Assembly (NCBI GenBank): GCA_964475855.1
Contig: CAYZAV010000004.1
Location: 1 to 61,131 of the forward strand
DNA from: an uncultured Candidatus Saccharibacteria bacterium
GTDB taxonomy: Bacteria; Patescibacteriota; Minisyncoccia; Minisyncoccales; Staskawiczbacteraceae
DNA length: 61,131 nt
Direction of reading: 5' to 3'
The notes beneath the pieces are model-generated. The model did not search any database and was not told where the DNA came from. It was given only the letters and a program-made list of their open reading frames with translations. A program made the translations under genes and the position numbers. Position 1 is the stretch's first letter. The number at the start of each line of letters is the position of its first letter. Shown here piece by piece: positions 5,735 to 43,413 of this stretch.

Positions 5735-7387
5735 ATGAACAAAAAAGCTATTATTTCCGCATCTAATAACGCAATTTTCAAACTCAAAGTTTTGGCCAAA
5801 GAAAAAGAAAGCATCAGGCGTAAATTAGTGGTAATAGCCGGGGAACTTCGCCGTAAAGCTAAGCAATTGGCCGTGACGGCCAAACAACTTGCCAAAACCG
5901 CTAAGGAAAAGGAGGATACCAGAAGCAAACTGGCGATAACTGCTAAACAACTTGCGAAAACCGCCAAGGAGAAGGAGGAAGTTAGACGTAAGCTGGTAGT
6001 GACAGTAGAAGAAAAGGAAGATACTCGGAGCAAGCTAGCGGTGACAGCCAAGAAACTTGCGGTGACGGCAGAGGAAAAGGAAGATACCAGAAGCAAACTG
6101 GCGGTAACCGCTAAGCAACTTGCTATGACGGCAAAAGAGAAGGAGATTGTCAGGAGTAAGTTGGAGGTGACGGCAGGAGCACTGCGTCTGAAAGCTAGTC
6201 AACTTGCCATTATTGCTAAGGAAAAAGAAAGTGTCAGAAGTAAGTTGGAGGATACGGCAAAAGATCTTGCCTACGCTAAAGCCACCGATGAAGCGATGTT
6301 TGATAGTATTGGTGACGGGCTTTTGGCTACAGATGAAAAAGGAAGGATCACGTTGATAAATAAAACGGCTGAAACATTGCTCGGCAAGAAAAGTAACGCG
6401 GTCATGGGCAAGGTTTTTTCAAAAATCATTCTTCTGGAGGATGAAAAAGGCGCATCTATTCCGGCAGAGAACCATCCCATAAACTTAGCCTTGATATCTG
6501 GTACGACTGCTACTGGAGGGGGTCTTACCTATTACTACGCACGAAAAGACCAAACAAAATTTCCTCTGGCAATTATGGCGACTCCTATTATTATTGCCGG
6601 TAAAGTCATTGGAGCCATTAAAGTGTTTCGAGATATTACGGAAGAAAAAGAGATCGACAAAGCAAAAAGCGAGTTTGTATCTATTGCCTCTCACCAACTT
6701 AAAACTCCGGCAACCATTATCGGTTTATACGCAGAAATGTTGCTCAATGGCCCCGGTAGTGTTACCACAGCAAAGCAAAAAGAGCATATTAATGAGATTC
6801 GTAGTGCTAATTCTCGCATGATAGATCTTGTTAACACCTTGCTTAATGTTTCCCGTATAGAAATGGGTATTTTTTCGGTAAACCCAACGCCAGTAGATGT
6901 TATTGATGTGTTTAAAAATGTTATTAAAGAATCAGAGGCAAATTTCAAAGAAAAACGTATTATTCCCCAAGAAAAATATCACCAATTAACCCACGTAATA
7001 CCCATCGATAAATTATTACTGAACATTGTTTTTTCTAATTTAGTCTCTAACTCCATAAAATATACTTCTATGCGCGGGGTAATATCTATAGAAAGCTTAG
7101 AAGTAAAAAAAGGTGAGTACGTAAATAATAAAATGATAAAAGAAAACAGCTTATTGGTCAGTGTATCTGATAATGGCTGTGGTATTCCCACTGACCAGCA
7201 AGATAAGATTTTTACCAGGTTTTTCAGATCGGATAATGCACGCAGAGAACATACTGACGGTAATGGTCTTGGACTGTATATTATTAAATCAATTTTAGAT
7301 CATATTGGAGGCGATGTGTGGTTTTCATCGAAAGAAAAAGAAGGCACTACGTTTTATTTCACCGTCCCATTAACTATTAATGTATAA
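5735..7387 (+). CDS. Cytoplasmic sensor histidine kinase: repeat-rich coiled-coil N-terminus, PAS, HisKA, HATPase_c
   Basis: H-box SIASHQLKTP, N-box LVSNSIKYT, G-boxes DNGCGIP and GNGLGLY. No TM segment is evident. Confidence 0.85.
   Translation: MNKKAIISASNNAIFKLKVLAKEKESIRRKLVVIAGELRRKAKQLAVTAKQLAKTAKEKEDTRSKLAITAKQLAKTAKEKEEVRRKLVVTVEEKEDTRSKLAVTAKKLAVTAEEKEDTRSKLAVTAKQLAMTAKEKEIVRSKLEVTAGALRLKASQLAIIAKEKESVRSKLEDTAKDLAYAKATDEAMFDSIGDGLLATDEKGRITLINKTAETLLGKKSNAVMGKVFSKIILLEDEKGASIPAENHPINLALISGTTATGGGLTYYYARKDQTKFPLAIMATPIIIAGKVIGAIKVFRDITEEKEIDKAKSEFVSIASHQLKTPATIIGLYAEMLLNGPGSVTTAKQKEHINEIRSANSRMIDLVNTLLNVSRIEMGIFSVNPTPVDVIDVFKNVIKESEANFKEKRIIPQEKYHQLTHVIPIDKLLLNIVFSNLVSNSIKYTSMRGVISIESLEVKKGEYVNNKMIKENSLLVSVSDNGCGIPTDQQDKIFTRFFRSDNARREHTDGNGLGLYIIKSILDHIGGDVWFSSKEKEGTTFYFTVPLTINV
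5800..6270 (+). repeat. In-frame tandem coding repeats (about 66 nt / 22 aa, with an 11-residue sub-period)
   Basis: Iterated AKEKEDTRSKLAVTAKQLAKT units. They also create the spurious antisense ORF 5653..6096. Confidence 0.8.
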
Positions 7388-8420: not shown

Positions 8421-8452
8421 TCGTTGATTACCCAAACGGGTTTTTTAAGGTG

Positions 8453-8680
8453 CTATGCATAGCACATTTGTCGGGCGTTGCCCATACGGATTTGAAGGTC
8501 CGTTATCGTTGGTTCAAGTTCCCTCCGTTGCGCTGGCGAGCAGCGTTGCTGTAGGTGCAGCAGTTCCCAATAGACATCCTCCAACTCCTGCAAAGATGCA
8601 CCCCCGAGCATCAACGTTTCTGCCTGGTCAATCAGGCTGGACTCTACCAATCCTCGTTCCCAATGATAAGCCTGCGCCAT
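8453..8680 (-). CDS. Island ORF 8, hypothetical 75 aa
   Basis: GGAGTAAC SD 7 nt before the ATG. Own promoter and terminator. No family recognised. Confidence 0.5.
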   Translation of the reverse strand: MAQAYHWERGLVESSLIDQAETLMLGGASLQELEDVYWELLHLQQRCSPAQRRELEPTITDLQIRMGNARQMCYA

Positions 8681-8741
8681 AGGTTACTCCGTTTCTCATG
8701 ATATCCATGGAATGTACGGTATGGCGGACACCGCAAATCCC

Positions 8742-8765
8742 TTTGAAGGCAAAGTTGCCTTCAAA
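8742..8765. promoter_or_regulatory. Perfect 11+11 palindrome at the predicted transcription start (operator-like)
   Basis: TTTGAAGGCAA-AG-TTGCCTTCAAA, immediately downstream of the -10 at 8769. Confidence 0.45.
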
Positions 8766-8768
8766 AAT

Positions 8769-8796
8769 AGTATATCACTGGCAGTGGTAAATACAA
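8769..8796 (-). promoter_or_regulatory. sigma70-like promoter, TTGTAT-16 nt-TATACT
   Basis: Read on the minus strand upstream of ORF 8453..8680. Confidence 0.4.
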
Positions 8797-8831
8797 TGGC
8801 CGCCTTCGCCAATGCTCCGGCGTGCCGAAGC

Positions 8832-8863
8832 AAAAAAAAGAGGGCAGTCGATTTGACTGCCCT
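8832..8863 (-). terminator. Strong rho-independent terminator
   Basis: AGGGCAGTC-AAATC-GACTGCCCT followed by CT8 on the minus strand. Confidence 0.75.
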
Positions 8864-8909
8864 ATGCCCCTAGCGCTCCCAATAGGAACTTGGGGGAATG
8901 TACTGTTGA

Positions 8910-9257
8910 TTAGCGGCCTCGGTGCCGCTTGCCCATTGCCTGGCGTTGGGCTCGGAAGATTACGACGTGAATCTTCGGTGCTCTTGCCATGGCCACCGGC
9001 TTCGGGATTGGTGAGAACTTTTTGGTGTTCTCGACCATTTTTGCCCGAAGCCGTTCGAGGCGTTCGTTGCGTTGGCGCGCACTGTCTTCCCGTTCGCGGG
9101 CTTCGAAGTTTGGGAGTTCGTCCTCATGATTGAGGACTTTCTCCCTGAGTTCGAAGTTTGGGAAAGCTGGGATGCCCAGGTACCGCTCCCATTCTTGCCA
9201 CGTGGCATTATCGGGAAGTGGGCTGATCGCCGCAACGAACAACAAGTCGTTAGCCAT
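8910..9257 (-). CDS. Island ORF 7, hypothetical 115 aa with an internal FPNFELRE / LPNFEARE repeat
   Basis: GGAGTAAC SD 9 nt before the ATG. The opposite-strand ORFs here lack an SD. Confidence 0.55.
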   Translation of the reverse strand: MANDLLFVAAISPLPDNATWQEWERYLGIPAFPNFELREKVLNHEDELPNFEAREREDSARQRNERLERLRAKMVENTKKFSPIPKPVAMARAPKIHVVIFRAQRQAMGKRHRGR

Positions 9258-9315
9258 GTCGTGTTACTCCATTGAGGATCCTTGGTGGCTAATCAAGGTT
9301 CCTGGGTTCAGGTAG

Positions 9316-9331
9316 GAGGAAGCGCTTCCTC
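9316..9331. promoter_or_regulatory. Perfect 16-nt palindrome in the leader of ORF 7
   Basis: GAGGAAGCGCTTCCTC. Confidence 0.4.
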
Positions 9332-9453
9332 TCTTTTCAAATCACTAAAGAATGTTAATTCGTTCGGAAGTATCTGCCATAAAAGACAATAATCCATCTA
9401 TTCAACTAATGATCTGAAAGGAGAGGATTTCCCCTGTTTCACTCTATATATCC

Positions 9454-9481
9454 ATTATAGCATATCCTACATGCTTGTCAA
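9454..9481 (-). promoter_or_regulatory. Consensus sigma70 promoter, TTGACA-16 nt-TATAAT
   Basis: Minus strand reads TTGACAAGCATGTAGGATATGCTATAATGGATATATAGAG. Closely resembles the promoter at 12665-12693. Confidence 0.7.
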
Positions 9482-9518
9482 TACCCTTACCCTCTTTTCG
9501 GGCCATTTGGTACTGGAC

Positions 9519-9561
9519 TGAAAAGAAGGGTGCTCGAATGTGCTAATTGCACTCGAGCACC
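9519..9561 (-). terminator. Terminator ending the long island operon
   Basis: GGTGCTCGAGTGC-AATTA-GCAC(AT)TCGAGCACC followed by CTTCTTTTC. Confidence 0.65.
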
Positions 9562-9567
9562 TTGGTT

Positions 9568-9762
9568 TTAGATTTCCCACCATCCGGTGGCGTAGGAGCG
9601 CTTCGGCTCCTGGCCGTTGCGCATCTGCTCCTTGTCTAAGCGGCGCTGTGCGCGTTTGCACTTTACCTTTACTCGTCCGATGCGCCGTCGGCGAGTCGGT
9701 TTTTTGTGCTCTTGGCTGCGCGCCTGGGCGAACTCACGGGTCGTCATCATTCCCTTGGTCAC
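9568..9762 (-). CDS. Island ORF 6, small Arg/Lys-rich protein (paralogue of 12398..12586)
   Basis: AAAGGA sits 7 nt before a GTG at 9762; ATG alternatives lie at 9750 and 9747. Core KKPTRRRRIGRVKVKCKRAQRR...GQEP aligns with the other copy. Confidence 0.45.
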   Translation of the reverse strand: MTKGMMTTREFAQARSQEHKKPTRRRRIGRVKVKCKRAQRRLDKEQMRNGQEPKRSYATGWWEI

Positions 9763-9857
9763 TTTACTATCCTTTCTAAAAAATCCTTCTAACAGTTTAC
9801 CATGCCCCATGCATCGTAACCTGTAGTGAAGGGGTAAACGGTTTTTTTTGTTTGCCC
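9763..9857 (-). repeat. Island intergenic module M5
   Basis: Minus strand: GGGCAAAC...GTTTACCCC hairpin, CTTCACTACAG, hairpin CAGGTTAC..GTAAACTG, TTAGAAG, then the SD. Confidence 0.8.
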
Positions 9858-9873
9858 TTTAGTTATTCGCGAT

Positions 9874-10077
9874 TTACGAATAACCTTCGTAGTGGGATTT
9901 GCCACACTTGCGGCATTTCCCAGACCATCCATAGTCGCCATCTTCCTTGATGTCGATCCAGGAGTGGATCCATCCCTCCTTGCACCAATTCCGCTTGATG
10001 TAGCGGATCACTTCGGTGACGATGGCGACACCTATCGCCACCATGAGAACAACTCCCAGAACGATCAATACCTCCAT
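9874..10077 (-). CDS. Island ORF 5, 67-aa single-TM protein with a Trp/Cys-rich tail
   Basis: GAGGAG SD. N-terminal hydrophobic helix, then C..W..W.D...CRKCG...Y.GY. Same architecture as 60519..60710. Confidence 0.55.
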   Translation of the reverse strand: MEVLIVLGVVLMVAIGVAIVTEVIRYIKRNWCKEGWIHSWIDIKEDGDYGWSGKCRKCGKSHYEGYS

Positions 10078-10178
10078 GGTATCTCCTCTAAAAAAAGCGA
10101 TTTCTTCTAAAAGTTTTTCAGCCCATTACTGATTAACTTTATTGAAGGGGAAAGCGCGGCATCATGCTTTGCTTTCCC
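10078..10178 (-). repeat. Island intergenic module M4
   Basis: GGGAAAGC-N15-GCTTTCCC hairpin (10148-10178), CCCCTTCAATAAAG (10137-10150), AAAGTT..AACTTT hairpin, TTTTAGAAG, then the SD. Confidence 0.8.
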
Positions 10179-10188
10179 TTATTTTTAA

Positions 10189-10545
10189 CTATTCCCACGT
10201 CCTGTTGGGGATAGCGTAGAGGGAGAAGGCGAACGTCGCCTTGGCCACCTCCTCGTAGGTGTACTCGTGGCGGTCGGTCAGCCGCGGCAAGCCGCGGACG
10301 CCCATGACCACGATTCGGTCGCCAAGTCCCAGGTTTACCTGGGGTGGCTTTTCCGGAATCGGGACGTCAATCCCGAATCGTTGCCTCATGGCCTTGATCG
10401 TCGCTTCGTGCGACGGGTTTAGGCAGGGTACGACGCCCTGGCTCACCAATTCCTTGACGGCTGCCACCGTCAGGGCGGTACGCGTGATGACACAGTCATC
10501 ACTGAACATTGAATCTGCCAATGCGAAACCAAAATACGTAGCCAT
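10189..10545 (-). CDS. Island ORF 4, STIV B116-like / DUF1874-like protein (118 aa)
   Basis: The pattern ALADSMF...NPSHEAT...VNLGLGDRIVVMGV..LPRL...YTYEEV...FAF matches my recollection of the B116/YddF family layout. Recalled, not searched. Confidence 0.55.
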   Translation of the reverse strand: MATYFGFALADSMFSDDCVITRTALTVAAVKELVSQGVVPCLNPSHEATIKAMRQRFGIDVPIPEKPPQVNLGLGDRIVVMGVRGLPRLTDRHEYTYEEVAKATFAFSLYAIPNRTWE

Positions 10546-10695
10546 TTGCTATCTCTTTCATTTTGAATAGCAGCGCGCCAGTTTGAAAGGTTGGCACAAA
10601 CCTTTATTTGCAGAATACGCTTCTGCTAGAATTTACCAATCAACATGACTGATGCACTCTAGTGAAGGGGCGAAATGCGTCATGCAAGTCGCCCT
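10546..10695 (-). repeat. Island intergenic module M3 (class A module followed by a class B leader)
   Basis: GGGCGA..TCGCCC hairpin, CCCCTTCACTAGAG (10657-10670), then AAAGGTT-TGTGCC-AACCTTT, CAAACTGGCGCGC and TTCAAAATGAAAGAGA. Confidence 0.75.
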
Positions 10696-10700
10696 TTACC

Positions 10701-11027
10701 CTACCCGCACCCGCAGTTCGGGCAGGTCTCGTGAAGCACGTTCGCGTGCCCGCAAAAGGGGCACAGCGGTGGGCTCGTCTGGCACTCTGCCAGATAGGTC
10801 GCCCTCCGTGCTTCTTCTGTGGCGAGGAGAAACCGTTCAGGTTTCCCCAGTTCCAAGGCGGCTAAGCCGTCATTGGTTGACCCCTGGATGGAATACTCCA
10901 CCCAGAGGTTCAGTCCCTCAATTGTCAGTTTTTTGGTGGCGTTTTGCCACCCCAGCCCAACACATTGGATTTTGATGTGTTGGGGGAATTGATCAAAAAT
11001 ACTGACTGCTTCTTGGTTGACTTTCAT
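10701..11027 (-). CDS. Island ORF 3, 108-aa protein with a C-terminal zinc ribbon
   Basis: AAAGGGAAG sits 5 nt before the ATG at 11027. C-terminus CPFCG-N9-CPNCGCG. The track's TTG start at 11078 lacks an SD. Confidence 0.55.
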   Translation of the reverse strand: MKVNQEAVSIFDQFPQHIKIQCVGLGWQNATKKLTIEGLNLWVEYSIQGSTNDGLAALELGKPERFLLATEEARRATYLAECQTSPPLCPFCGHANVLHETCPNCGCG

Positions 11028-11254
11028 AGTGGCTTCCCTTTCATTTTGAAAACCGTTGTATGTCCTTAGTTCTGCCAACGCGGCAGTTTGAAGGTGGACA
11101 TATTCCCTTCTTTCAAATCATCACGGCGCGGCATTCGATATATCCTTTACCATTGCAAGCAACGGTGAATGTGATATATCTGGCGCGTGCGCCTGGTGAT
11201 CTGAAAGAAAGGAGGATTCTTTGAATTAGGCGAATCCTTATAGCCTTTTGCGCA

Positions 11255-11530
11255 TTAGTTGCGCTCTGCCTGGTCGCGGAGAAATTTTCTCCACAGCGGA
11301 CGGACGAGATATGCCGGAAGCGGTTTTACCGCTTCAATCATATCGTCCGCCTGTGCTGGTTCAAACAGGTATTCAACACACCCAGTTTGGGTGTTTACGA
11401 CCTGCACGCACATGGCGCAGTCGTCTTCCTCTTCCTGCTTGGCCGCGGCAATCGCGGTGGCAAGGTTACTGATGTGATCGAGAAATGACCACGCAGTAGT
11501 GCCAATCTGTCGACAATAAATATCGTAGAT
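11255..11530 (-). CDS. Island ORF X, 91 codons, no canonical start behind a full module and SD
   Basis: The frame opens right after a TGA. GAGGGG lies 6 nt upstream of ATC at 11530 and ATT is 3 codons later. The only ATG is at codon 40 and has no SD. Not in the ORF track. Confidence 0.35.
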   Translation of the reverse strand: MYDIYCRQIGTTAWSFLDHISNLATAIAAAKQEEEDDCAMCVQVVNTQTGCVEYLFEPAQADDMIEAVKPLPAYLVRPLWRKFLRDQAERN

Positions 11531-11629
11531 ACGTCACCCCTCGTTAGAAAAACTTCTAAAAGCTTACCATACCCAGTGCATCGTAAGCTTTAGTGAAGGG
11601 GAAAGTGCGGCATCGTGCGTTGCTTTCCC
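11531..11629 (-). repeat. Island intergenic module M2
   Basis: GGGAAAGC..hairpin (11599-11629), CCCCTTCACTAAAG (11588-11601), AGCTTAC-N15-GTAAGCT hairpin (11561-11589), TTTTAGAAG, then GAGGGG. Confidence 0.8.
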
Positions 11630-11639
11630 TTGTTTTTTG

Positions 11640-12215
11640 CTAATCGCCCAGTTGAGCGATTGCTTTGCGCGCCCTGGCGACGACCTCCTTGAAGTCGTGA
11701 AACCTGTTTTTCAGGGCTTCTTCGAAGAGTTTCTCCCACTCCTCCTTGGTGGCACAGAAGAAGCTCATGCCGGGGCGGCGCATGTCGCGCCAGGACAGGG
11801 CCTTTTGCCCGTAGGTCTCACCCGGGCAAAGCCCCTCAACTCCGTCCTTTCGCATCCATCTTTGTTGCCCTTGGTTGGGCTCGCCAAAGATGCCCCGCAC
11901 GATGCGGTATTTCCCTGCTCTTCCATGAGCCTCATACTTTTCCCTCTCTACCTTGACGAACTGAGCGATGGCCTCCTTGATCTCTTCCAGGGGCCAAGGG
12001 AAAATAGCTTGGATGGAGACATTATCTCCCCATCCGGTTTCCCTGATTCGAACGGAGCACCATATGGCTCCGAGTTCCTTCATTCTTTTTTCAATTGCCT
12101 TGGGGTCTGCTAACCCCAGGCCACCAGATTTGATGGTGGCAAACGTGCCACCCTTTCGTCCGGCTTCGATCTTGGCCCCAACCAGATAGGGCGCCAATTC
12201 GATGAGGTTAGCCAT
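11640..12215 (-). CDS. Island ORF 2, hypothetical 191 aa
   Basis: AGGGGA SD 7 nt before the ATG. Largest island ORF. No family recognised. Confidence 0.6.
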   Translation of the reverse strand: MANLIELAPYLVGAKIEAGRKGGTFATIKSGGLGLADPKAIEKRMKELGAIWCSVRIRETGWGDNVSIQAIFPWPLEEIKEAIAQFVKVEREKYEAHGRAGKYRIVRGIFGEPNQGQQRWMRKDGVEGLCPGETYGQKALSWRDMRRPGMSFFCATKEEWEKLFEEALKNRFHDFKEVVARARKAIAQLGD

Positions 12216-12310
12216 TTTAGATCCCCTAAAAACTTCTAAAATTTGATAACACGAAATTGTGTTACAAACCTTATTGAAGGGGAAAGCGCGGCATCGTGCG
12301 TTGCTTTCCC
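12216..12310 (-). repeat. Island intergenic module M1
   Basis: GGGAAAGC-N15-GCTTTCCC hairpin (12280-12310), CCCCTTCAATAAGG (12269-12282), TTTGTAACAC-N6-GTGTTATCAAA hairpin, TTTTAGAAG, then AGGGGA. Confidence 0.8.
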
Positions 12311-12397
12311 TTGTTTACTATTCCGGCGTGAAAGTAGGGAGGGTTTTTTGAAATAGGCAAACCCTCTTGGCCTGCAATGCACACCATGTGTATTGCA

Positions 12398-12586
12398 TTA
12401 AATAACATCGCGCTCGGTGAGTGCGTAACCCACCGTGGTGGGTTCGCCCCCCTGGCGGAGGGTCTCATTTGCTCCGCGTCGGGCGGCACGCTTCGCGCGG
12501 CGTTTGACAACGGTCAAGCGCCGTCGGGTGCTTTTGGCCAATAGCCTACGTGATTGACCAACCCGGTGGCAAACCATCATTTTCAT
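12398..12586 (-). CDS. Island ORF 1, small Arg-rich protein (paralogue of 9568..9762)
   Basis: GAGGGA sits 9 nt before the ATG at 12586. Core AKSTRRRLTVVKRRAKRAARR...GGEP. Confidence 0.45.
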   Translation of the reverse strand: MKMMVCHRVGQSRRLLAKSTRRRLTVVKRRAKRAARRGANETLRQGGEPTTVGYALTERDVI

Positions 12587-12608
12587 AATATTCAATCCCT
12601 CTGTATTT

Positions 12609-12659
12609 GCGTCAAATTAAGGATCACTTGTATAGGGTATTTGACGCATTTACCCTATA
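12609..12659. promoter_or_regulatory. Two overlapping, mutually exclusive perfect 9-bp inverted repeats in the island leader
   Basis: TATAGGGTA/TACCCTATA at 12631-12639 and 12651-12659. GCGTCAAAT/ATTTGACGC at 12609-12617 and 12639-12647. Confidence 0.6.
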
Positions 12660-12664
12660 CCTCC

Positions 12665-12693
12665 ATTATACTACTACCAAGAGTTCTTGTCAA
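12665..12693 (-). promoter_or_regulatory. Perfect consensus sigma70 promoter, TTGACA-17 nt-TATAAT, reading into the island
   Basis: TATAAT at 12665-12670 and TTGACA at 12688-12693 on the minus strand. Confidence 0.75.
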
Positions 12694-12707
12694 GCCCCGT
12701 GAGGGGT

Positions 12708-12719
12708 TGTCGCACAATA
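12708..12719 (+). repeat. TGTCGCACAATA copy 3 (intergenic, at the island/typA-terminator junction)
   Basis: Exact 12-mer. Confidence 0.95.
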
Positions 12720-12753
12720 AGCAAAAATCGGCTGGATTCAGCCGATTTTTGCT
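12720..12753 (-). terminator. typA terminator (15-bp perfect stem, bidirectional shape)
   Basis: AGCAAAAATCGGCTG-GATT-CAGCCGATTTTTGCT. Confidence 0.8.
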
Positions 12754-12786
12754 ATTCGTAAATTCGTAACAAATTCGTAAATTCGT
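12754..12786. repeat. Four phased ATTCGT repeats between the typA stop and its terminator
   Basis: ATTCGT at 12754, 12762, 12773 and 12781. Confidence 0.7.
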
Positions 12787-12789
12787 TGA

Positions 12790-14628
12790 TTACTTCCCTT
12801 TCCGTTCAGCCTGTTTGGCGGCCATTTCGGTCAGATACATTTTACGGATACGCACCGTTTTTGGGGTAATTTCTACCAGTTCATCGTCGCCGATGTATTC
12901 AAGCGCGTCTTCCAGTTCCATGATTTTTGGGGTATTAAAATGTTCGTCGCTGCCTTCACCTTTTGATCGCATGTTGCTAAGCTGTTTGGTTTTGCATACG
13001 TTCACGCGAATGTCTTCGGGTCGGCTGTTTTGGCCTACCACTTGGCCTTCGTAAATGGGTACGGCGTGGTCTAAAAACAGCACTCCCCTATCCTGTACGT
13101 TGATCAAGCCATAGTAATTCGTTGTGCCTGATTCGCTGGCAATGAGCGAGCCGTTAATGCGTTCTCTCCAGTTCCCTGGGTCGGCCTGGTAGTCAAAAAA
13201 GCTGGTGTTCATAATTCCCAAACCTTTGGTATCAGTTAAAAATTCACTACGATAGCCAAACAGCCCTTTGGTCGGGATGATAAATTCCAGAAACACCGTA
13301 TTGTTGTGGGTGCGCATATCTTGTAACTCTCCTTTGCGCCCGCCCAGTTTTTCCATAATAGCGCCTTGGTATTGTTCAGGGACTTCAATAAATGCCTTTT
13401 CATACGGAACCAGGGTTTTGCCTTCAACTTGTCGCACAATAACCTGGGGCCTTGAAACGGAAAATTCATAGCCTTCGCGCCGAAGCCGTTCAATCAAGAT
13501 GGCCAAATGCAGTTCACCACGGCCCGAAACTGTCCAACTTGAGCCTCCTGCGGCATTGGTGGTGTTTTCTTGGACACGCAGCGCCACATCGGTTTCCAAT
13601 TCTTTAAATAATCGTTCACGAATTTGGCGGCTGGTGCAAAATTCCCCCTCTTTTCCGGCAAATGGGCTGTCATTAACCATTAGCATCACTTTTACGGTCG
13701 GCTCTTCTATATTAATAACCGGCAAGGCAATAGGGTTTTCAATATCGGCAATGGTCTCACCAATGGTGGCATCGGGAATTCCGGCAATAGCGGCAATGTC
13801 GCCGGCACCGGCCTCTTCTGCTTCAATTTTTCCAAGCCCCGAAAAGGTCATTAGTGAAGTTAAACGATATTTTTTTTGTACTCCCTCCCGGTTAATCTGC
13901 ATCACTTCCTGGCCGGCTTTGATTGAGCCATTGTAAACACGGCCGATGGCAATGCGGCCTTTGAAATTATCAGCGGTAATAGAGGTGACCAGTAATTGCA
14001 ACGGTTTATTGACGTCAGCAATAGGCGCGGGAATGTACTGGACGATGGCGTCAAATAGTGGAGTAATGCTGTCCATGGTTGCCAAATCAGATACCAATCC
14101 GGCCTTGCCTTCACGTCCCGATGCGTATAAAACCGGGAAATCAAAGGCATTTTCTCCGGCTCCCAATTCCAGAAATAATTCATGGGTAGCTTCCAGGGCC
14201 CATTCGGACCTCGCGCCCGGCTTATCAATTTTATTGATAACAACGATAATTTTGTGGCCCATCTGCAGGGCTTTCTTAAGCACAAAACGGGTTTGGGGCA
14301 TAGGGCCCTCTTTGGCATCAATTAACAGCAAACAGCCGTCTGCCATGTTTAGCACCCGTTCCACTTCCCCGCCGAAATCCGCGTGACCGGGGGTATCTAT
14401 GATATTAATTTTGATATCGCCGTATTGCACTGCAGCATTTTTGGAAAAAATGGTAATACCACGTTCTCTTTCTAATTCATTGCTGTCCATGATCATTTCC
14501 TGGGCCGCTTCTTCCTTTTTCATGTGCGTTTTGCTTTGCCGCAAAAGCGCGTCCACTAGGGTAGTTTTGCCGTGGTCAACGTGAGCGATAATTGCAATAT
14601 TACGAATCAAGCTGTGAATGGGTTGCAT
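12790..14628 (-). CDS. typA: Translational GTPase TypA/BipA
   Basis: IRNIAIIAHVDHGKTTL, DTPGHADFGGEV, NKIDK. 612 aa. Confidence 0.95.
   Translation of the reverse strand: MQPIHSLIRNIAIIAHVDHGKTTLVDALLRQSKTHMKKEEAAQEMIMDSNELERERGITIFSKNAAVQYGDIKINIIDTPGHADFGGEVERVLNMADGCLLLIDAKEGPMPQTRFVLKKALQMGHKIIVVINKIDKPGARSEWALEATHELFLELGAGENAFDFPVLYASGREGKAGLVSDLATMDSITPLFDAIVQYIPAPIADVNKPLQLLVTSITADNFKGRIAIGRVYNGSIKAGQEVMQINREGVQKKYRLTSLMTFSGLGKIEAEEAGAGDIAAIAGIPDATIGETIADIENPIALPVINIEEPTVKVMLMVNDSPFAGKEGEFCTSRQIRERLFKELETDVALRVQENTTNAAGGSSWTVSGRGELHLAILIERLRREGYEFSVSRPQVIVRQVEGKTLVPYEKAFIEVPEQYQGAIMEKLGGRKGELQDMRTHNNTVFLEFIIPTKGLFGYRSEFLTDTKGLGIMNTSFFDYQADPGNWRERINGSLIASESGTTNYYGLINVQDRGVLFLDHAVPIYEGQVVGQNSRPEDIRVNVCKTKQLSNMRSKGEGSDEHFNTPKIMELEDALEYIGDDELVEITPKTVRIRKMYLTEMAAKQAERKGK
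13430..13441 (+). repeat. TGTCGCACAATA copy 4 (inside typA)
   Basis: Exact 12-mer. Confidence 0.95.
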
Positions 14629-19006: not shown

Positions 19007-22000
19007 TTATTCTGTTGGTCGTAGTTCAATATCCGGTTCGGGTATGTCGTCATTATTCTGGATTTCGTATGGATCGCCAACGCTGTCCTGTTCATTGTAA
19101 AATGTGCAGGTGACCGTGGTGCCCGAGGTTATAATTATGGCGTTTAGGGGATCCCCGTTATCGCAACTTGAACTGGTGTTCGTCCATCCAGGGGTGGCGG
19201 GTTCAGTTAATGAATAGGTTCCGGAATTGAGCGTAAATGAGGTTGACCCGACCCCACTCATAGTTATGGCAGTTGAGCTAGTGGATGTCGCTCCGCTGAC
19301 CGCGTAGTCAAAACTACCATCCCCGCCAGTGGTATTTTTAATGATCATAAGTGTGCCCTGGCCGCCGGATGATCCACTATACGTGTTCGTAAACGTACAG
19401 GTAGATGTTTTACCGTCTTCAATAGTGATGGGTAATGGATTCCCGGAAAGATCGTAAAGGTCAATCAGTGGGCCAGTGGGGTCAAGTAAATTGGTACATT
19501 GGGCGCTGGTCAGTGTCCAGTTTGCAAGAGGAGCTTCATTAAGAATGTAATTAGTCCCCGGAGAAAGATCTACAGAAGCATATCCGGATCCTGTAACCGT
19601 GGCAATGGCTGGCATCCCCGTATCACCGGAAAAAGTAAACGTCCCATCTCCGCCAACAGCAATTTTATTGACTTCAAGTGTTCCCATGCCGGGTGGCGGC
19701 GCGGTATAGGTGTTTTCAAAATAGCAGGTAGTAGTGCCGCCAGCTACTACCAGTATATCTTTTACACCGGTTGGGGTGCTGATGTAGGTTGTATCGCAAA
19801 ATGCGTCGGTTAAGGTAAATCCCGCAGGTAGCGCCGTTTCATCAATGCTATAGGCTTTACTGGTAGTGATGTTTGTACTATCAATGAAGGGTTGATACAG
19901 ATTTACAGAATTTGCATTTAAGGTAACCGGAGAAATTGGAAATATATTTTCCGGCGCATAAGGAGTAGTTCCGATCCTGCTATTGGTTTCAAAGGTAAAG
20001 GTGCCTCCGGCTCCGTAGGTGTTTTTGATTAATCGAATGGTGCCGGTATTTGGCGGTGGAGGTGGTGGCGCAGTATAAGTATTTTCAAACGTACAAGTAG
20101 TGGTTTGGCCTGCATATATGCCAAATCCTTCGTCTGTGAAACCGGGATTCAGAATATGTGTACCAAATTGATCCGTACATGATACCATAACGCCCGGAGA
20201 TAATGGAGTTTGGGCCCAGTTAGCTTGTGAGACCTCGGTAATATTACCAATTAAGCTACTTTGGTTTGGTAATGATATGAGGGCGCTTGAACCTGTTCCC
20301 CCAGTGGTAGTAACGGATACATTAGCAGGTGCTCCAAAAACTGCAGGCATGCTAAAGTTAAACGTGCCGTTGCCGCCAATAGTATTTTTAATAATTTGTA
20401 GAGTTCCCGCAGCAGGTGGGGTGCCTGTGGTATTAGTAAATGTACACGTTGTAATTTCCCCGGGATTTATCATTACGTCATCAAGACCTGGGCCACCTTG
20501 GGCCACTCCCGTTGGTGTTCCATTTGCTAGATTGCACACAACTGAAGTTATTGACCATCCCGCCGATAGCGTTTCATATATATTTCGAACGCCTGGCCCG
20601 TATACTATGTAAGAGTCGTCCCCATAATTACTAGTAGTTGTAATGCTATGACTACCTTGACCCCAACCAAAAGTAAAGGTGCCATCACCTCCAGCGGTAG
20701 TTTTTATAATATGAACATATCCAACCCATGAGTTGGTCATATAACAAGTTACCGTAGTGCCATCGCCAATCGTAATTACTGGATTAGGAGACACAGGAAA
20801 GGTTGTACCATCTGAAGACGAGCAATAAAAACCGCCATTCTGTTGAGCCCATTCAGGCCCTAGTGATTCGTTTAAAGTATAACTTCCCGTTGCCATTGAA
20901 ATCAATCCGCTGTCACCATTCCCAATTCCCGTGGCAATTGCCCCGGTAGTTGTTACGCTAATAAGCCCCGGGGTTGGTAAAACATTGAAATCAAATGTCC
21001 CATCACTGCCACCGGTTGCTATTTTATGTATTATTAAATTTCCAGTTCCAGTTGGTGCTGTATAGGTATTATTAAACGAACAGGTGACCGTATCCCCGGC
21101 TCCAATAGTAACTGCGGTGACGGGGTCTCCGTTGTCACAGATAGCCGAGGCTAAATTCCAATCTGGAATTGAGCTTTCCGCAAGACTGTAAGTTCCCGTG
21201 CCAACTGGTCGAGAATCGTATCCTGATCCAATGGAAGAAGAAGTACTTACCGCCATTAGAAATGGGGGTAATACGGTTGCGCCTTGTTGAATACCAATCG
21301 TAAAATTAACGTTTCCTCCAGGGCCTCCATTAGTGTTTTTCAGTATTTGAAGAGTTCCTGTTGCTGCGCCCGTAGTATAGGTATTTTCAAACGTACAAGT
21401 AACAACACTGCCAGGGGTAATATTAATTGCATTAATAGGATCTCCATTGTCGCAAGTGGTTGTACCGGTTTCAGTCCATCCTACTATTGGATCTTCACTA
21501 ATTTCATAGAGTCCTGGGGTTAAAGAGGCCAAACCAAGTCCAGACGTAGAACTGAGACTACCGATTGTCGCTTGTATAACGATAGGAGTTGCAAAAACGG
21601 GAAAATTAAAGGTTTCACCGCCCGCGCCATTGATAGTATTTTTTATAATTCTTAGTGTTCCCGGACTTGTCGGGTTATATGTATTGCTAAAATTACAAAT
21701 AACTGTGTCTCCGGGATCTATTTGAATACCGCTTACGCCAAAGCTATCCGGCGTTCCACGAATATCTGAAACATTAGTACTTAAGGCACACATTGCTCCC
21801 CCGTCAAAGTTCCAACCTAATGGGATTGGAGATTCATCTAAGAAATATGTTCCAGGCAAAATAGAGATAATGCCACTTGAGGCAAATCCCCCCGAAACAG
21901 CAATGCTTGGAGCTCCGCTGGTTGGCCCATTTAATACAAAGTCGAATATTTCATCCGGACCACTGGTAATGGTTTTATTGATGATAATTTCGGCTTGGCC

Positions 22001-22123
22001 CGGCGGAGCTGCTTTTATTGTTGCTGGTGTTAATCCAAAGAATAGTACTGCTATTGTAGCCGCAAAAAATAGCCGATTAAAATATTTTTTAGAAAAATAA
22101 TTCACGTTTAATAATAATATCAT
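19007..22123 (-). CDS. Giant secreted repeat protein (1038 aa), about 10 prealbumin/SpaA-like fold repeats
   Basis: Signal peptide. Reiterated GTLxIIKNTxGGxGTFxF...C..G....I..G.T.TCTFxNTY units. Confidence 0.8.
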   Translation of the reverse strand: MILLLNVNYFSKKYFNRLFFAATIAVLFFGLTPATIKAAPPGQAEIIINKTITSGPDEIFDFVLNGPTSGAPSIAVSGGFASSGIISILPGTYFLDESPIPLGWNFDGGAMCALSTNVSDIRGTPDSFGVSGIQIDPGDTVICNFSNTYNPTSPGTLRIIKNTINGAGGETFNFPVFATPIVIQATIGSLSSTSGLGLASLTPGLYEISEDPIVGWTETGTTTCDNGDPINAINITPGSVVTCTFENTYTTGAATGTLQILKNTNGGPGGNVNFTIGIQQGATVLPPFLMAVSTSSSIGSGYDSRPVGTGTYSLAESSIPDWNLASAICDNGDPVTAVTIGAGDTVTCSFNNTYTAPTGTGNLIIHKIATGGSDGTFDFNVLPTPGLISVTTTGAIATGIGNGDSGLISMATGSYTLNESLGPEWAQQNGGFYCSSSDGTTFPVSPNPVITIGDGTTVTCYMTNSWVGYVHIIKTTAGGDGTFTFGWGQGSHSITTTSNYGDDSYIVYGPGVRNIYETLSAGWSITSVVCNLANGTPTGVAQGGPGLDDVMINPGEITTCTFTNTTGTPPAAGTLQIIKNTIGGNGTFNFSMPAVFGAPANVSVTTTGGTGSSALISLPNQSSLIGNITEVSQANWAQTPLSPGVMVSCTDQFGTHILNPGFTDEGFGIYAGQTTTCTFENTYTAPPPPPPNTGTIRLIKNTYGAGGTFTFETNSRIGTTPYAPENIFPISPVTLNANSVNLYQPFIDSTNITTSKAYSIDETALPAGFTLTDAFCDTTYISTPTGVKDILVVAGGTTTCYFENTYTAPPPGMGTLEVNKIAVGGDGTFTFSGDTGMPAIATVTGSGYASVDLSPGTNYILNEAPLANWTLTSAQCTNLLDPTGPLIDLYDLSGNPLPITIEDGKTSTCTFTNTYSGSSGGQGTLMIIKNTTGGDGSFDYAVSGATSTSSTAITMSGVGSTSFTLNSGTYSLTEPATPGWTNTSSSCDNGDPLNAIIITSGTTVTCTFYNEQDSVGDPYEIQNNDDIPEPDIELRPTE

Positions 22124-22156
22124 AATTAGTGATCGGTCTATGTGTGGATAACCCCT

Positions 22157-24379: not shown

Positions 24380-24440
24380 GTTCAGTCATTTTACCATGCC
24401 CGGCAAACGCCGCAACTGTGGATAACAAATGACCGAAGAA

Positions 24441-24848
24441 TTATTCCGTTACGGTGATGGTTCCCTTTATCGTCGGATGCAGTTTGCAGTAATACGAATA
24501 CTTTCCCGCCACGACAAAGGTGTCGCTATATGTTGAAGCTTTTTGCAGTTCCGGACTCATAGGGCCGTTGTTATCTGCGGTAACCGTGTGGGTCATAATA
24601 TCGGTGTTAGTCCAAACAACCGTCTGGCCTTTTTTGATGGTAACATCTTTTGGGAAAAAACCATCTTTACTGATTACTACCGTCACAATATTGGAAGGCA
24701 TGGCAATTTGGTAAGGATTTTTCACCTGGTTGGTTTTGAGCACGATAATGCAATACACTAATCCGTACACAATTGCACCCAGAATAGCATAGGCTAAAAG
24801 CCAGTACCAGAACGTTTTTTTAAGTTGTTGTAGGTTTTTCATAGTCAA
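24441..24848 (-). CDS. Membrane-anchored cupredoxin-domain protein
   Basis: KKGQTVVWTNTD.MTHTVTA...YSYYCKLHPTIKGTITV. Confidence 0.7.
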   Translation of the reverse strand: MTMKNLQQLKKTFWYWLLAYAILGAIVYGLVYCIIVLKTNQVKNPYQIAMPSNIVTVVISKDGFFPKDVTIKKGQTVVWTNTDIMTHTVTADNNGPMSPELQKASTYSDTFVVAGKYSYYCKLHPTIKGTITVTE

Positions 24849-42525: not shown

Positions 42526-42613
42526 AATCGTAGTGTGTTGTGGTTTATTGATTATTATTTGTTGCTAATTTCTTATACTACACTATTCCATTAATCCTGT
42601 CAAGCCTTTTGGG

Positions 42614-43312: not shown

Positions 43313-43413
43313 ATACCTTAATTATATCATACTATAAAGTCTTGTCAATAGCGCGTGGGCATATTTGCCGGTAAACCAAAAAGCACCCCATAAGGAGTGC
43401 TTTTTGTCGGTGA

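What the first reader, a model, noticed from the sequence alone, without database searches (positions are those of the whole stretch)
9763..12310. Five copies of a stem-loop + CCCCTTCA(C/A)TAnAG module that looks like a T3/T7/SP6-class phage promoter
On the minus strand, each gap between genes of the long island operon carries the same ordered module. First comes a GC-rich hairpin (GGGAAAGC-N15-GCTTTCCC in M1, M2 and M4; GGGCGA..TCGCCC in M3; GGGCAAAC..GTTTACCC in M5). Its 3' arm runs straight into CCCCTTCAATAAGG (12269-12282), CCCCTTCACTAAAG (11588-11601), CCCCTTCACTAGAG (10657-10670), CCCCTTCAATAAAG (10137-10150) or CCCCTTCACTACAG (9821-9834). The T3 promoter is AATTAACCCTCACTAAAGGGAGA and the T7 promoter is TAATACGACTCACTATAGGGAGA. 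The island consensus CCTTCACTAAAG matches the T3 core CCCTCACTAAAG at 11 of 12 positions, with a G where transcription would start. A hairpin followed by a promoter is also the RNase III-site/promoter layout of T7-like intergenic regions. No single-subunit RNA polymerase gene is in this window. The motifs could therefore be relics, be served in trans by a phage or another locus, or be something else such as processing sites or binding sites of an island protein.
Basis: partly seen in the sequence, partly recalled or inferred. Interest (0 to 1): 0.8.

Follow-up and report, generated by a model that had tools for sequence, protein, structure and literature searches.

The report
Two-hairpin spacer between orphan-gene cassettes
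The five "phage-promoter-like" motifs are real, but each is one arm of a conserved two-hairpin element that separates small orphan genes in a hypervariable island of a Parcubacteria (CPR) chromosome, so it most likely acts on the RNA as a divider between genes and is not a T3/T7-type promoter.

Summary
Five copies of CCCCTTCAMTANRG lie on the minus strand (0.21 expected by chance), each just after a GC-rich hairpin. The promoter reading is not supported.

- **Structure:** In every copy, CTTC-AM-TA-NAG is the 5' arm of a second hairpin whose 3' arm is the equally conserved ...T-TA-GAAG, 24-45 nt downstream. The "CCCC" is the 3' arm of hairpin 1.
- **Covariation:** Across 18 copies from 8 loci (Parcubacteria and related metagenome contigs), 91% of cells pair, against 44-53% in slid controls. 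Thirteen pairs show compensatory changes, including the variable N.
- **Strand:** The sense strand folds better in 15 of 18 copies, and G.U pairs outnumber A.C (21 to 8). All copies are intergenic and co-oriented with their genes.
- **Context:** The operon has its own perfect sigma70 promoter. No single-subunit RNAP is in the window. Four IMG/VR scans, Rfam, and phage and plasmid BLAST found nothing.
- **Island:** It fills a typA-msrA hotspot whose cargo differs between sister genomes. Homology breaks at these modules. The cargo is ORFans plus one gene with an AcrIII-1/Crn2 fold.

Best reading: a new structured RNA element between cistrons, for processing, stabilising or insulating the mRNA, that is also a recombination joint, as PeSLs are in T4-like phages. 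The exact mechanism is inferred, not shown.

The parts
12233..12310 (-). Module M1. Hairpin 1 at 12310-12280 (GGGAAAGC-N15-GCTTTCCC). Hairpin 2 at 12279-12233 (CTTCAATAAGG...TTTTAGAAG). Lies between ORF0 and ORF1.
   Evidence: 71.7 bits
11553..11629 (-). Module M2. Hairpin 1 at 11629-11599. Hairpin 2 at 11598-11553 (CTTCACTAAAG...CTTTTAGAAG). Lies between ORF1 and ORF2.
   Evidence: 80 bits
10620..10694 (-). Module M3. Hairpin 1 at 10694-10668 (GGGCGA...TCGCCC). Hairpin 2 at 10667-10620 (CTTCACTAGAG...CTAGCAGAAG, shifted register). Lies between ORF3 and ORF4.
   Evidence: 57.7 bits
10104..10178 (-). Module M4. Hairpin 1 at 10178-10148. Hairpin 2 at 10147-10104. Lies between ORF4 and ORF5.
   Evidence: 76.5 bits
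9786..9857 (-). Module M5. Hairpin 1 at 9857-9832 (GGGCAAAC...GTTTACCC). Hairpin 2 at 9831-9786. Lies between ORF5 and ORF6.
   Evidence: 67 bits
12665..12693 (-). P1, a perfect sigma70-type promoter (TTGACA-17-TATAAT) that heads the island operon. It sits just after the typA terminator (12720-12753) and is conserved in L007, L161 and L162.
9454..9481 (-). P2, a second perfect sigma70-type promoter (TTGACA-16-TATAAT, with TG upstream of the -10 box). It is preceded by a terminator-like hairpin and a CTTC...GAGG hairpin (9561-9491).
11103..11250 (-). Type 2 non-coding element between ORF2 and ORF3: a terminator-like hairpin followed by CTTTCTTTCAGATCAC...GTGATGATTTGAAAGAAGGGAA. Conserved in L001, L008, L011, L012, L023 and L162.
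9331..9426 (-). Second type 2 element, downstream of P2 and upstream of ORF7. Conserved in L007, L008, L012 and L023.
12398..12586 (-). ORF0, 62 aa, arginine-rich, the first gene after P1. No family match.
11640..12215 (-). ORF1, 191 aa, an ORFan with only one relative among 5.8 billion proteins.
11255..11530 (-). ORF2, about 91 aa. The open frame begins at ATC after a Shine-Dalgarno sequence (GAGGGG), and there is no ATG, GTG or TTG at that position.
   Evidence: read from the sequence
10701..11027 (-). ORF3, 108 aa, with a C-terminal CxxC...CxxC. No family match.
10189..10545 (-). ORF4, 118 aa, DUF1874 fold (STIV B116 / AFV3-109 / AcrIII-1 / Crn2). A candidate cyclic-oligoadenylate ring nuclease.
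9874..10077 (-). ORF5, 67 aa, with an N-terminal hydrophobic helix. ORFan.
9568..9762 (-). ORF6, 64 aa, rich in Arg and Lys. A 70%-identical homologue follows the module in L023/L162.

Best explanation
Each module is a conserved cis-acting element of about 75-95 nt, made of two abutting hairpins that fold on the sense strand. It most likely functions in the polycistronic mRNA transcribed from the island's own sigma70 promoter P1.

Anatomy: hairpin 1 is a GC-rich stem closed by GGG/CCC. With no spacer, hairpin 2 follows. Its base is the invariant CUUC/GAAG helix, then a 2-nt AM bulge, then UA/UA pairs, usually a 1-nt bulge on the 3' side, and a variable upper stem.

Proposed action (inferred): the element punctuates the mRNA between cistrons.
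- Hairpin 2 is the target of a double-strand-specific endonuclease (RNase III class) or another host factor.
- Hairpin 1 stays on the upstream cistron as a 3' protective hairpin or weak terminator.
- Each orphan gene therefore becomes an independently stable and translatable unit.

At the DNA level, the conserved cores of the modules are the places where gene cassettes are exchanged, inserted and deleted in a typA-msrA hotspot of Staskawiczbacteria-like Parcubacteria, in the way PeSLs work in T4-like phages.

Shown: the structure, its covariation, the strand bias, the intergenic co-oriented placement, the mosaic breakpoints, the island's own promoter, and the absence from phage collections. 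Inferred: that the element acts as RNA, that it is cleaved or bound, and which factor does this.
For: - **Two-hairpin fold:** It is predicted for all five copies, with z-scores of -2.0 to -4.6.
- **14 copies:** 91.2% of cells are paired against 44-53% for slid partners, with 11 pairs showing compensatory change.
- **18 copies from 8 loci:** 91.4% paired, 13 compensatory pairs, covariation score 0.415 against 0.09-0.11 for slid partners.
- **Base of hairpin 2:** A further diverged copy has CCUC/GAGG at the base, and other copies have the U.G intermediate.
- **Strand bias:** 21 G.U pairs against 8 A.C. The sense strand is more stable than the antisense in 15 of 18 copies, by 5.5 kcal/mol on average.
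- **Placement:** All copies are intergenic, co-oriented with the flanking ORFs, and lie between a stop codon and the next Shine-Dalgarno sequence.
- **Transcription:** A 12/12 sigma70 promoter heads the operon. Only one weak 9/12 sigma70-like match lies between P1 and the terminator at about 9.5 kb, and it is inside ORF2, not in a module.
- **Hotspot:** The typA-msrA gap is 0.9 kb in L161, 1.3 kb in L162, 1.65 kb in L008 and 4.35 kb in the window, with different cargo in each. Homology blocks end at the modules.
- **L161:** Its cassettes are separated by terminator-plus-promoter composites and not by modules, so the modules occupy the place of an inter-gene regulatory unit.
- **RNase III:** An rnc gene is present in the module-bearing genome L007.
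Against: - No transcript data exist. Cleavage, binding and even co-transcription are not shown.
- The invariant base of hairpin 2 (CUUC/GAAG, UA/UA) shows almost no covariation in the 18-copy alignment. Its pairing rests on complementarity, U.G variants and one diverged copy.
- Such strong sequence conservation is more than RNase III normally needs. It hints at a sequence-specific factor that was not identified.
- G.T pairs are also tolerated in folded single-stranded DNA, so a role of the sense strand as DNA is not excluded.
- Six of 17 copies have a U-run after hairpin 2, so some copies may act as terminators instead.
- The conserved cores could be kept uniform by recombination alone.
Confidence: 0.55

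Rival explanations
1. The motif is a promoter for a T3/T7/SP6-class single-subunit RNA polymerase supplied in trans, for example by an infecting phage. Transcription would start at the G of TANAG. The transcript would then begin with the upper stem of hairpin 2, and hairpin 1 would end upstream transcripts.
For: M2 (CCTTCACTAAAG) matches the T3 core CCCTCACTAAAG at 11 of 12 positions (T3 sequence from my own knowledge). The G at the putative +1 is invariant in 18 copies. The cargo includes a gene with close jumbo-phage relatives.
Against: - Conservation stops at -13. Positions -14 to -17 covary with the 5' arm of hairpin 1.
- Position -2 is free and covaries with a downstream partner.
- A second conserved block, at variable distance, is complementary to the 'promoter'.
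- +2 and +3 are T, not G.
- The family consensus is CTTCAATAAAG, and relatives read CTCTTC..., CCACTTCC... or CCTTCTATTTAG.
- No single-subunit RNAP is present in the window or in the related loci.
- Four IMG/VR scans filtered with the covariance model gave no viral copy. Curated phage records gave no match.
- The operon has its own sigma70 promoter.
Confidence: 0.05
2. The modules are folded single-stranded-DNA recombination sites, analogous to attC sites, of a gene-cassette system. An unlinked recombinase would use them to capture and shuffle the ORFan cassettes.
For: The imperfect hairpin has conserved bulged bases and a variable terminal part. Orientation relative to the genes is fixed. 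One module sits at each cassette boundary. Gene order differs between loci, and homology breaks at the modules.
Against: - The R''/R' consensus (RYYYAAC / GTTRRRY) is absent on either strand (read).
- No integrase lies in the window or within 10 kb in any locus.
- The strand that folds is the coding strand. attC sites fold on the bottom strand (my own knowledge).
- The mosaic pattern is equally well explained by homologous recombination between conserved non-coding sequences, as shown for PeSLs (PMC2839356).
Confidence: 0.1
3. The modules are leaky intrinsic terminators or attenuators. Hairpin 1 or hairpin 2 would stop part of the transcription after each gene and set a graded expression along the operon.
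For: Hairpin 1 belongs to the same class as hairpins that are followed by U-rich tails in the type 2 elements and in L161 (GGGAAACC...GGTTTCCC TCTTCTTTTC). Six of 17 copies have at least 4 U just after hairpin 2.
Against: Hairpin 1 is followed by CUUCAAUAAAG, which has no U-run. The U-run after hairpin 2 is not conserved. This reading does not explain the invariant CUUC-AM-UA...U-UA-GAAG core or the zero spacing between the two hairpins.
Confidence: 0.15
4. The modules are binding sites for a small arginine-rich protein encoded in the island (ORF0 or ORF6). This protein would act like lambda N on nut sites, or as a translational repressor.
For: ORF0 is the first gene after P1 and has an arginine-rich stretch (RRRLTVVKRRAKRAARR). 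ORF6 is similar, and its homologue follows the module in L162.
Against: No ORF0 or ORF6 homologue was found in L001, L007, L008, L016, L018 or L158, which all carry modules. Several of those contigs are short, so this is not conclusive.
Confidence: 0.07
5. The modules are selfish or neutral repeats (REP/MITE-like, or CRISPR-repeat mimics) with no role in expressing the neighbouring genes.
For: The hairpin 1 copies in M1, M2 and M4 are nearly identical, which suggests recent spread or gene conversion. An anti-CRISPR-like gene is in the island.
Against: - Copies are clustered and not dispersed: all 5 in the window lie within 2.6 kb of 61 kb.
- Orientation is co-directional with the genes in every copy.
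- Structure is preserved through many compensatory changes across diverged genomes.
- No RAYT or transposase is linked.
- The window has no CRISPR array to compare with.
Confidence: 0.05

Closest known systems
PeSLs (promoter-early stem-loops), the mobile regulatory cassettes of T4-type phage hyperplastic regions (PMC2839356, PMC4122927)
   Same: Both are short conserved non-coding modules that contain a GC-rich stem-loop. Both sit between small ORFan genes, running from the stop codon to the next Shine-Dalgarno sequence. Both are concentrated in hypervariable regions and coincide with the boundaries of insertions, deletions and replacements between related genomes.
   Different: PeSLs are defined by a sigma70 promoter plus a terminator stem-loop. 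The type 1 module has no sigma70 boxes at a workable spacing. It has a second, long, covarying hairpin with an invariant base instead. The host is a CPR bacterial chromosome, not a T4-like phage. The terminator-plus-P2 composite at 9561-9454 and the composite in L161 are the parts that are truly PeSL-like.
RNase III processing sites between genes of the phage T7 early operon (R0.3 to R1.3; my own knowledge)
   Same: In both, a strong host-type promoter drives a string of small genes that includes an anti-defence gene. The genes are separated by conserved irregular hairpins with bulges or internal loops. Such a site would leave a protective hairpin on the upstream message.
   Different: Cleavage has not been tested here. 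The T7 sites are single hairpins, whereas this element has two abutting hairpins and a strictly conserved base sequence. No sequence similarity was established.
Integron attC sites and attC clusters without an integrase (CALINs)
   Same: One imperfect hairpin with bulged bases per cassette, a fixed orientation, a variable terminal part, and arrays of small genes of unknown function.
   Different: The GTTRRRY/RYYYAAC boxes are absent, there is no integrase, and the coding strand is the one that folds.
T3/T7/SP6-class phage promoters
   Same: One copy matches the T3 core at 11 of 12 positions, and the G at the would-be +1 is invariant.
   Different: The conserved block is only about 14 nt. The upstream and downstream parts covary as RNA-like helices. 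No cognate polymerase was found, and no copies were found in phage collections.
REP/BIME extragenic palindromes
   Same: Both are intergenic palindromic elements inside operons that can stabilise the upstream mRNA.
   Different: REPs are dispersed genome-wide in both orientations, have a GTAG head and are linked to RAYT transposases. These modules are clustered in one island, point in one direction and have a different architecture.

Membership tests
T7-class single-subunit RNAP promoter | A contiguous conserved duplex block from about -17 to +6 | tested here: not met
   Only -13 to +1 is conserved. Positions -14 to -17 carry 0.3-0.8 bits (except one T) and covary with the 5' arm of hairpin 1. 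Position -2 carries 0.32 bits.
T7-class single-subunit RNAP promoter | A cognate single-subunit RNAP gene in the same genome or phage | tested here: not met
   No ORF of suitable size or family lies in the 61 kb window or in the related loci. The rest of the genome could not be searched.
T7-class single-subunit RNAP promoter | Occurrence in phage genomes | tested here: not met
   Two strict IMG/VR scans gave 0 hits. BLAST against 50,697 phage records gave no match.
T7-class single-subunit RNAP promoter | Primary transcript 5' ends at +1 | not testable with these tools
   Needs dRNA-seq, 5'-RACE or in vitro run-off transcription.
PeSL (T4-type mobile regulatory cassette) | Sigma70 -35 and -10 boxes inside the element | tested here: not met
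   The promoter scan finds consensus promoters only at P1 and P2, and no sigma70-like match falls inside a module. By eye, no boxes at 16-18 nt spacing occur in any module.
PeSL (T4-type mobile regulatory cassette) | A stem-loop between ORFan genes, located at indel or replacement boundaries in a hypervariable region | tested here: met
Integron attC | R'' RYYYAAC and R' GTTRRRY core sites | tested here: not met
   The ends of the hairpins are CTTC...GAAG on the sense strand and the same on the antisense strand. There is no GTT/AAC core.
Integron attC | An adjacent integron integrase, or known attC arrays | tested here: not met
   There is no tyrosine recombinase in the window or in the 10 kb flanks of related loci.
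RNase III processing site (T7 early-operon type) | An irregular hairpin of about two helical turns, lying between cistrons of one transcript | tested here: met
   Hairpin 2 is 44-62 nt with conserved bulges, lies between co-oriented ORFs and is downstream of P1. Co-transcription is inferred.
RNase III processing site (T7 early-operon type) | Cleavage by RNase III | not testable with these tools
   An rnc gene exists in the module-bearing genome L007. A cleavage assay is needed.
Intrinsic terminator | A GC-rich hairpin followed directly by a U-run | tested here: inconclusive
   Hairpin 1 is followed by CUUCAAUAAAG. Hairpin 2 is followed by at least 4 U in 6 of 17 copies.
REP/BIME | Dispersed copies in both orientations, linked to a RAYT gene | tested here: not met
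   All copies are clustered and co-oriented, and no RAYT was seen. The whole genome was not available.
Any Rfam family | A match to a curated covariance model | tested here: not met
   No match overlaps a module at gathering thresholds, or at E<=5 on the island.

The most novel reading that the evidence does not exclude
The modules may be the recognition signal of a dedicated factor that has not yet been identified. They would then define a new cassette system of CPR bacteria. One version is a sequence-specific RNA-processing signal, or a self-cleaving RNA, that makes each captured ORFan an autonomous expression unit. The other version is an integron-like recombination site that works without a linked integrase and drives ORFan capture at chromosomal hotspots such as typA-msrA.
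Probability: 0.15. Interest if true: 0.75.

Novelty: new variant of a known kind. Interest (0 to 1): 0.55.

Why it matters
Parcubacteria and other CPR bacteria are uncultured, and almost nothing is known about how they regulate genes or acquire new ones. This work defines a covariation-supported structured element that is absent from Rfam. It punctuates arrays of orphan genes, including a candidate anti-type-III-CRISPR ring nuclease with close jumbo-phage relatives. It also marks the joints where cassettes differ between sister genomes. If it is an RNA processing or insulating signal, it would show how newly captured genes become expressible in these reduced genomes. It would also be a compact, portable spacer between genes for synthetic operons. 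In addition, the result is a warning that a near-perfect match to a famous promoter can be one arm of a hairpin.

Tried and rejected
- **First MAFFT alignment (A3):** It mis-registered the covarying arms of hairpin 1. I re-anchored it by trimming every copy to 6-nt flanks (A4).
- **Hand-written detectors:** The regexes missed copies. The structural descriptor alone gave 2-11 false hits per shuffled window, so I used it only to spot candidates and replaced it with the covariance model R1.
- **Genome scan:** 8 of 10 hits were chance matches without the fold.
- **Hairpin-1-only viral scan:** It returned about 85 generic hairpins at chance level, and none was a module.
- **Libraries with no useful result:** Rfam, PHROGs and PADLOC on island proteins, Pfam and PHROGs on cargo from other loci, phage and plasmid BLAST, and a literature search for the motif strings.
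- **Resemblances from memory, not pursued:**
  - rrn/lambda boxA (CUCUUUAACAA against CCCUUCAAUAA). The segment is base-paired here, and the AC variants fit boxA worse.
  - K-turn. There are no tandem G.A pairs.
  - Bulge-helix-bulge motif. The geometry is wrong.
  - HK022 put RNA, which also has two hairpins. It sits close to the promoter only, and I could not recall its sequence.
  - Single-stranded promoters of the Frpo type. The stems are too short to hold -35 and -10 boxes.
  - N4 hairpin promoters. Those have a 5-7 bp stem and a 3-nt loop, unlike these.
- **Closing helix:** A helix between the A-rich 5' flank and the U-rich 3' flank is predicted only for M3 and M5, so I dropped it.

Full report
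**1. Observation**

CCCCTTCAMTANRG occurs five times on the minus strand (9821, 10137, 10657, 11588, 12269). Chance expectation is 0.21, and no shuffle reaches five. Each copy follows a GC-rich hairpin directly.

Three small corrections apply. M2's 3' arm is ACTTTCCC. M5's stem has one mismatch. Not every gap carries the module: the ORF2-ORF3 gap and the gaps after ORF6 hold a different conserved element.

**2. Anatomy**

Folding the sense strand of each copy gives the same picture (z-scores -2.0 to -4.6).
- Hairpin 1 is a GC-rich stem closed by GGG/CCC.
- Hairpin 2 abuts it with no spacer. Its base is CUUC paired with GAAG, followed by a 2-nt bulge (A, then A or C), then U-A and A-U pairs, usually a single bulged base on the 3' side, and a variable upper stem.

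A second conserved block, YTNTTAGAAG, lies 24-45 nt downstream and forms the 3' arm.

**3. Relatives**

ORF1 has a single relative among 5.8 billion proteins. Its contig, L001, carries two modules in which hairpin 1 is AGAGCAGT/ACTGCTCT or AGAGCA/TGCTCT. The motif there reads CTCTTCTCTAAAG or CTCTTCAATAAAG.

More copies came from three sources:
- Contexts of close ORF4 relatives: L007 (four copies), L008-L010 (two copies) and L158 (two diverged copies).
- One tight two-gap pattern scan of GTDB genomes: two true hits, a Parcubacteria MAG and a MAG labelled Bdellovibrionales. The other eight hits lacked the fold.
- The same scan of JGI metagenomes: L023, plus two loci (L028 and L035) that repeat contigs already fetched.

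A covariance model built from 14 copies scores true copies at 46-80 bits (33.6 for the diverged copy in L158) and chance pattern matches at 26 bits or less. In the 61 kb window it finds only the five known copies.

**4. Covariation**

| Alignment | Cells paired | Slid controls | Pairs with compensatory change | Source |
|---|---|---|---|---|
| 14 copies (A4) | 91.2% | 44-53% | 11 | |
| 18 copies, model-guided (A5) | 91.4% | 44-53% | 13 | |

In A5 the covariation score is 0.415, against 0.09-0.11 for slid partners. A5 leans toward the structure because it was fitted to the model.

The variable N of TANAG pairs as A:U, C:G, G:C, U:A or U:G. The base helix CUUC/GAAG is almost invariant, with only U.G variants. 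One diverged copy has CCUC/GAGG.

Hairpin 1 falls into recurring types (GGGAAAGC, GGGCGA, GGGCAAG, AGAGCA, GAAGGAG). One loop, AAAGCACGAUGCCGC, is kept on two different stems.

**5. Strand and placement**

G.U pairs outnumber A.C by 21 to 8. The sense strand folds better than the antisense in 15 of 18 copies, by 5.5 kcal/mol on average. Every copy is intergenic, points the same way as the flanking ORFs, and lies between a stop codon (6-37 nt upstream) and the next Shine-Dalgarno sequence. In two copies the GAGG at the base of hairpin 2 appears to serve as the Shine-Dalgarno sequence itself, by my reading of the sequence. This fits an element that works in the transcript. A folded sense-strand DNA is not excluded.

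**6. Context**

The window is chromosomal, with 5S and 23S rRNA, a tRNA and housekeeping genes. TypA relatives at 75-80% identity are labelled Candidatus Staskawiczbacteria or Parcubacteria, so the host is a CPR bacterium.

The island (about 8.44-12.79 kb, GC about 0.48-0.52 against about 0.38-0.45 in the flanking windows) sits between typA and msrA. It starts with a 12/12 sigma70 promoter just after the typA terminator. A second perfect promoter lies at 9481-9454, behind a terminator-like hairpin.

All cargo genes are ORFans, with one exception. ORF4's confident model (pLDDT 88.5) matches only the DUF1874 fold of STIV B116, AFV3-109, AcrIII-1 and Crn2. Its closest phage relative (72% identity) is in a phiKZ-like jumbo phage, where no module is present.

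**7. Hotspot and mosaic**

The same typA-msrA gap differs between sister genomes:

| Locus | Gap size | Type 1 modules | Note |
|---|---|---|---|
| L161 (typA 90% identical) | 0.9 kb | 0 | two ORFans separated by a terminator-plus-sigma70-promoter composite |
| L162 | 1.3 kb | 1 | larger context of L023 |
| L008 | 1.65 kb | 2 | |
| Window | 4.35 kb | 5 | |

P1 or a near-consensus counterpart heads the gap in L161 and L162, and the P1 region is also conserved in L007.

BLAST blocks between loci start and stop at the modules, at the type 2 elements and at the promoters. For example, the L162 module is M4-like throughout but is followed directly by the ORF6 homologue. That fits a crossover at the 3' end of the module that removes ORF5 and M5.

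The type 2 elements share the same plan: a hairpin followed by CUUCUUUC...GAAAGAAG.

**8. Promoter hypothesis**

Against it:
- Conservation ends at -13, and positions -14 to -17 covary with hairpin 1.
- Positions -2 to +6 are paired to a distant conserved block.
- +2 and +3 are T.
- The family consensus drifts away from T3.
- No polymerase gene is present in the window or related loci.
- Two strict viral scans gave no hits. One loose-core scan and one hairpin-1-only scan, both filtered with the model, gave no copy. Phage and plasmid BLAST gave nothing.

The 11-of-12 match to T3 applies to one copy. By my estimate, chance is about 5e-4 for a handful of promoters and offsets, and far higher once one allows for all the motifs a reader might recall. 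I put this reading at about 5%.

**9. Other rivals**

- **attC-like site:** the architecture is reminiscent, but the core boxes and an integrase are absent, and the coding strand is the one that folds.
- **Terminator:** hairpin 1 lacks a U-run, and the U-run after hairpin 2 is present in only 6 of 17 copies.
- **Binding site for the arginine-rich ORF0 or ORF6:** no homologues were found in most module-bearing loci.
- **REP or CRISPR-repeat mimic:** the copies are clustered and co-oriented, and the window has no CRISPR array.

**10. Mechanism proposed**

The structure, strand bias, placement, own promoter and mosaic breakpoints are shown. What follows is inferred.

The module acts in the mRNA as punctuation between cistrons. 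Hairpin 2 is cut or bound, with RNase III as the simplest candidate (an rnc gene is present in L007). Hairpin 1 remains as a 3' protective hairpin. Each cassette thereby becomes an independent expression unit. The conserved cores also serve as crossover points for cassette exchange.

The strict conservation of the base of hairpin 2 suggests a sequence-specific partner that I could not identify.

**11. Comparison and novelty**

By function and location, the nearest concepts are PeSLs of T4-like phages (PMC2839356, PMC4122927) and the RNase III sites of the T7 early operon. The module fails the defining sigma70-box test for PeSLs. It matches no Rfam family. It is a new variant of a known kind of element, in a lineage where nothing comparable has been described in the libraries searched.

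**12. Limits**

There are no transcript data. Only 61 kb of the host genome and short contigs of the relatives were available. The number of independent lineages is small, and several copies are close relatives. E-values from the model are rough.

Noticed in passing
window 10189-10545 (-): ORF4 is a DUF1874-fold protein. The model has pLDDT 88.5, and its only fold matches are STIV B116, SIRV1 ORF114a, AFV3-109, the anti-CRISPR ring nuclease AcrIII-1 (6scf) and Crn2. The NPSH motif, with His46, is invariant in 28 relatives and aligns with GHQAT of AFV3-109. The family has over 1,500 members, including a 72%-identical gene in a phiKZ-like jumbo phage contig (L006).
   Followed up: partly
window 11103-11250 and 9331-9426 (-); also L001 about 1780-1870, L007 about 8940-9300, L011, L012, L157, L162: A second conserved non-coding element ('type 2'): a terminator-like hairpin, then CTTTCTTTCAGATCAC...GTGATTTGAAAGAAGGGAA, forming a long second hairpin that also begins with CUUC and ends with GAAG. 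It has the same overall plan as the type 1 module and recurs across the same loci.
   Followed up: partly
window 12665-12693 and 9454-9481 (-): Two perfect-consensus sigma70 promoters (12/12) inside the island, with similar downstream sequence (TATAATGGAGGTATAGGGTAAA and TATAATGGATATATAGAGTGAA). The P1 region is conserved in L007, and L161 and L162 carry a near-consensus counterpart at the same place.
   Followed up: partly
window 8440-12790; L008, L161, L162: The typA-msrA gap is a hypervariable hotspot in related Parcubacteria. It ranges from 0.9 to 4.35 kb, with different ORFan cargo in each genome.
   Followed up: yes
window 11255-11530 (-): ORF2 has a good Shine-Dalgarno sequence (GAGGGG), but the open frame begins with ATC, and the first canonical start is 40 codons downstream. 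It either uses a non-canonical start or has recently lost its start codon.
   Followed up: no
window 12398-12586 and 9568-9762 (-): Two very basic small proteins (ORF0 and ORF6) with arginine-rich stretches that recall RNA-binding arginine-rich motifs. ORF0 is the first gene after P1.
   Followed up: partly
window 12317-12397 (-): After ORF0 comes a hairpin followed by CCTACTTTCAC. This looks like the 5' half of a type 2 element fused directly to M1. It is similar to L011 1186-1230 and suggests an old rearrangement.
   Followed up: no
window 12754-12786: A 14-nt direct repeat ATTCGTAAATTCGT occurs twice, 19 nt apart, between the typA stop codon and its terminator.
   Followed up: no
window 5879-6259 (+): Five to six degenerate 63-nt tandem coding repeats (about 21 aa each, 62-77% identical) in the N-terminal part of the PAS histidine kinase gene.
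   Followed up: no
window 19007-27642 (-) and 40819-45399 (-): A cluster of very large SpaA/prealbumin-fold, TIG-repeat and DUF11 proteins, probably surface proteins. It is conserved in synteny in sister genomes L161 and L162.
   Followed up: no
L009 541-1365 and L164 7964-8809: Insertion-sequence transposases (rve and DDE_Tnp_1) lie next to the hotspot region in some assemblies of sister genomes.
   Followed up: no
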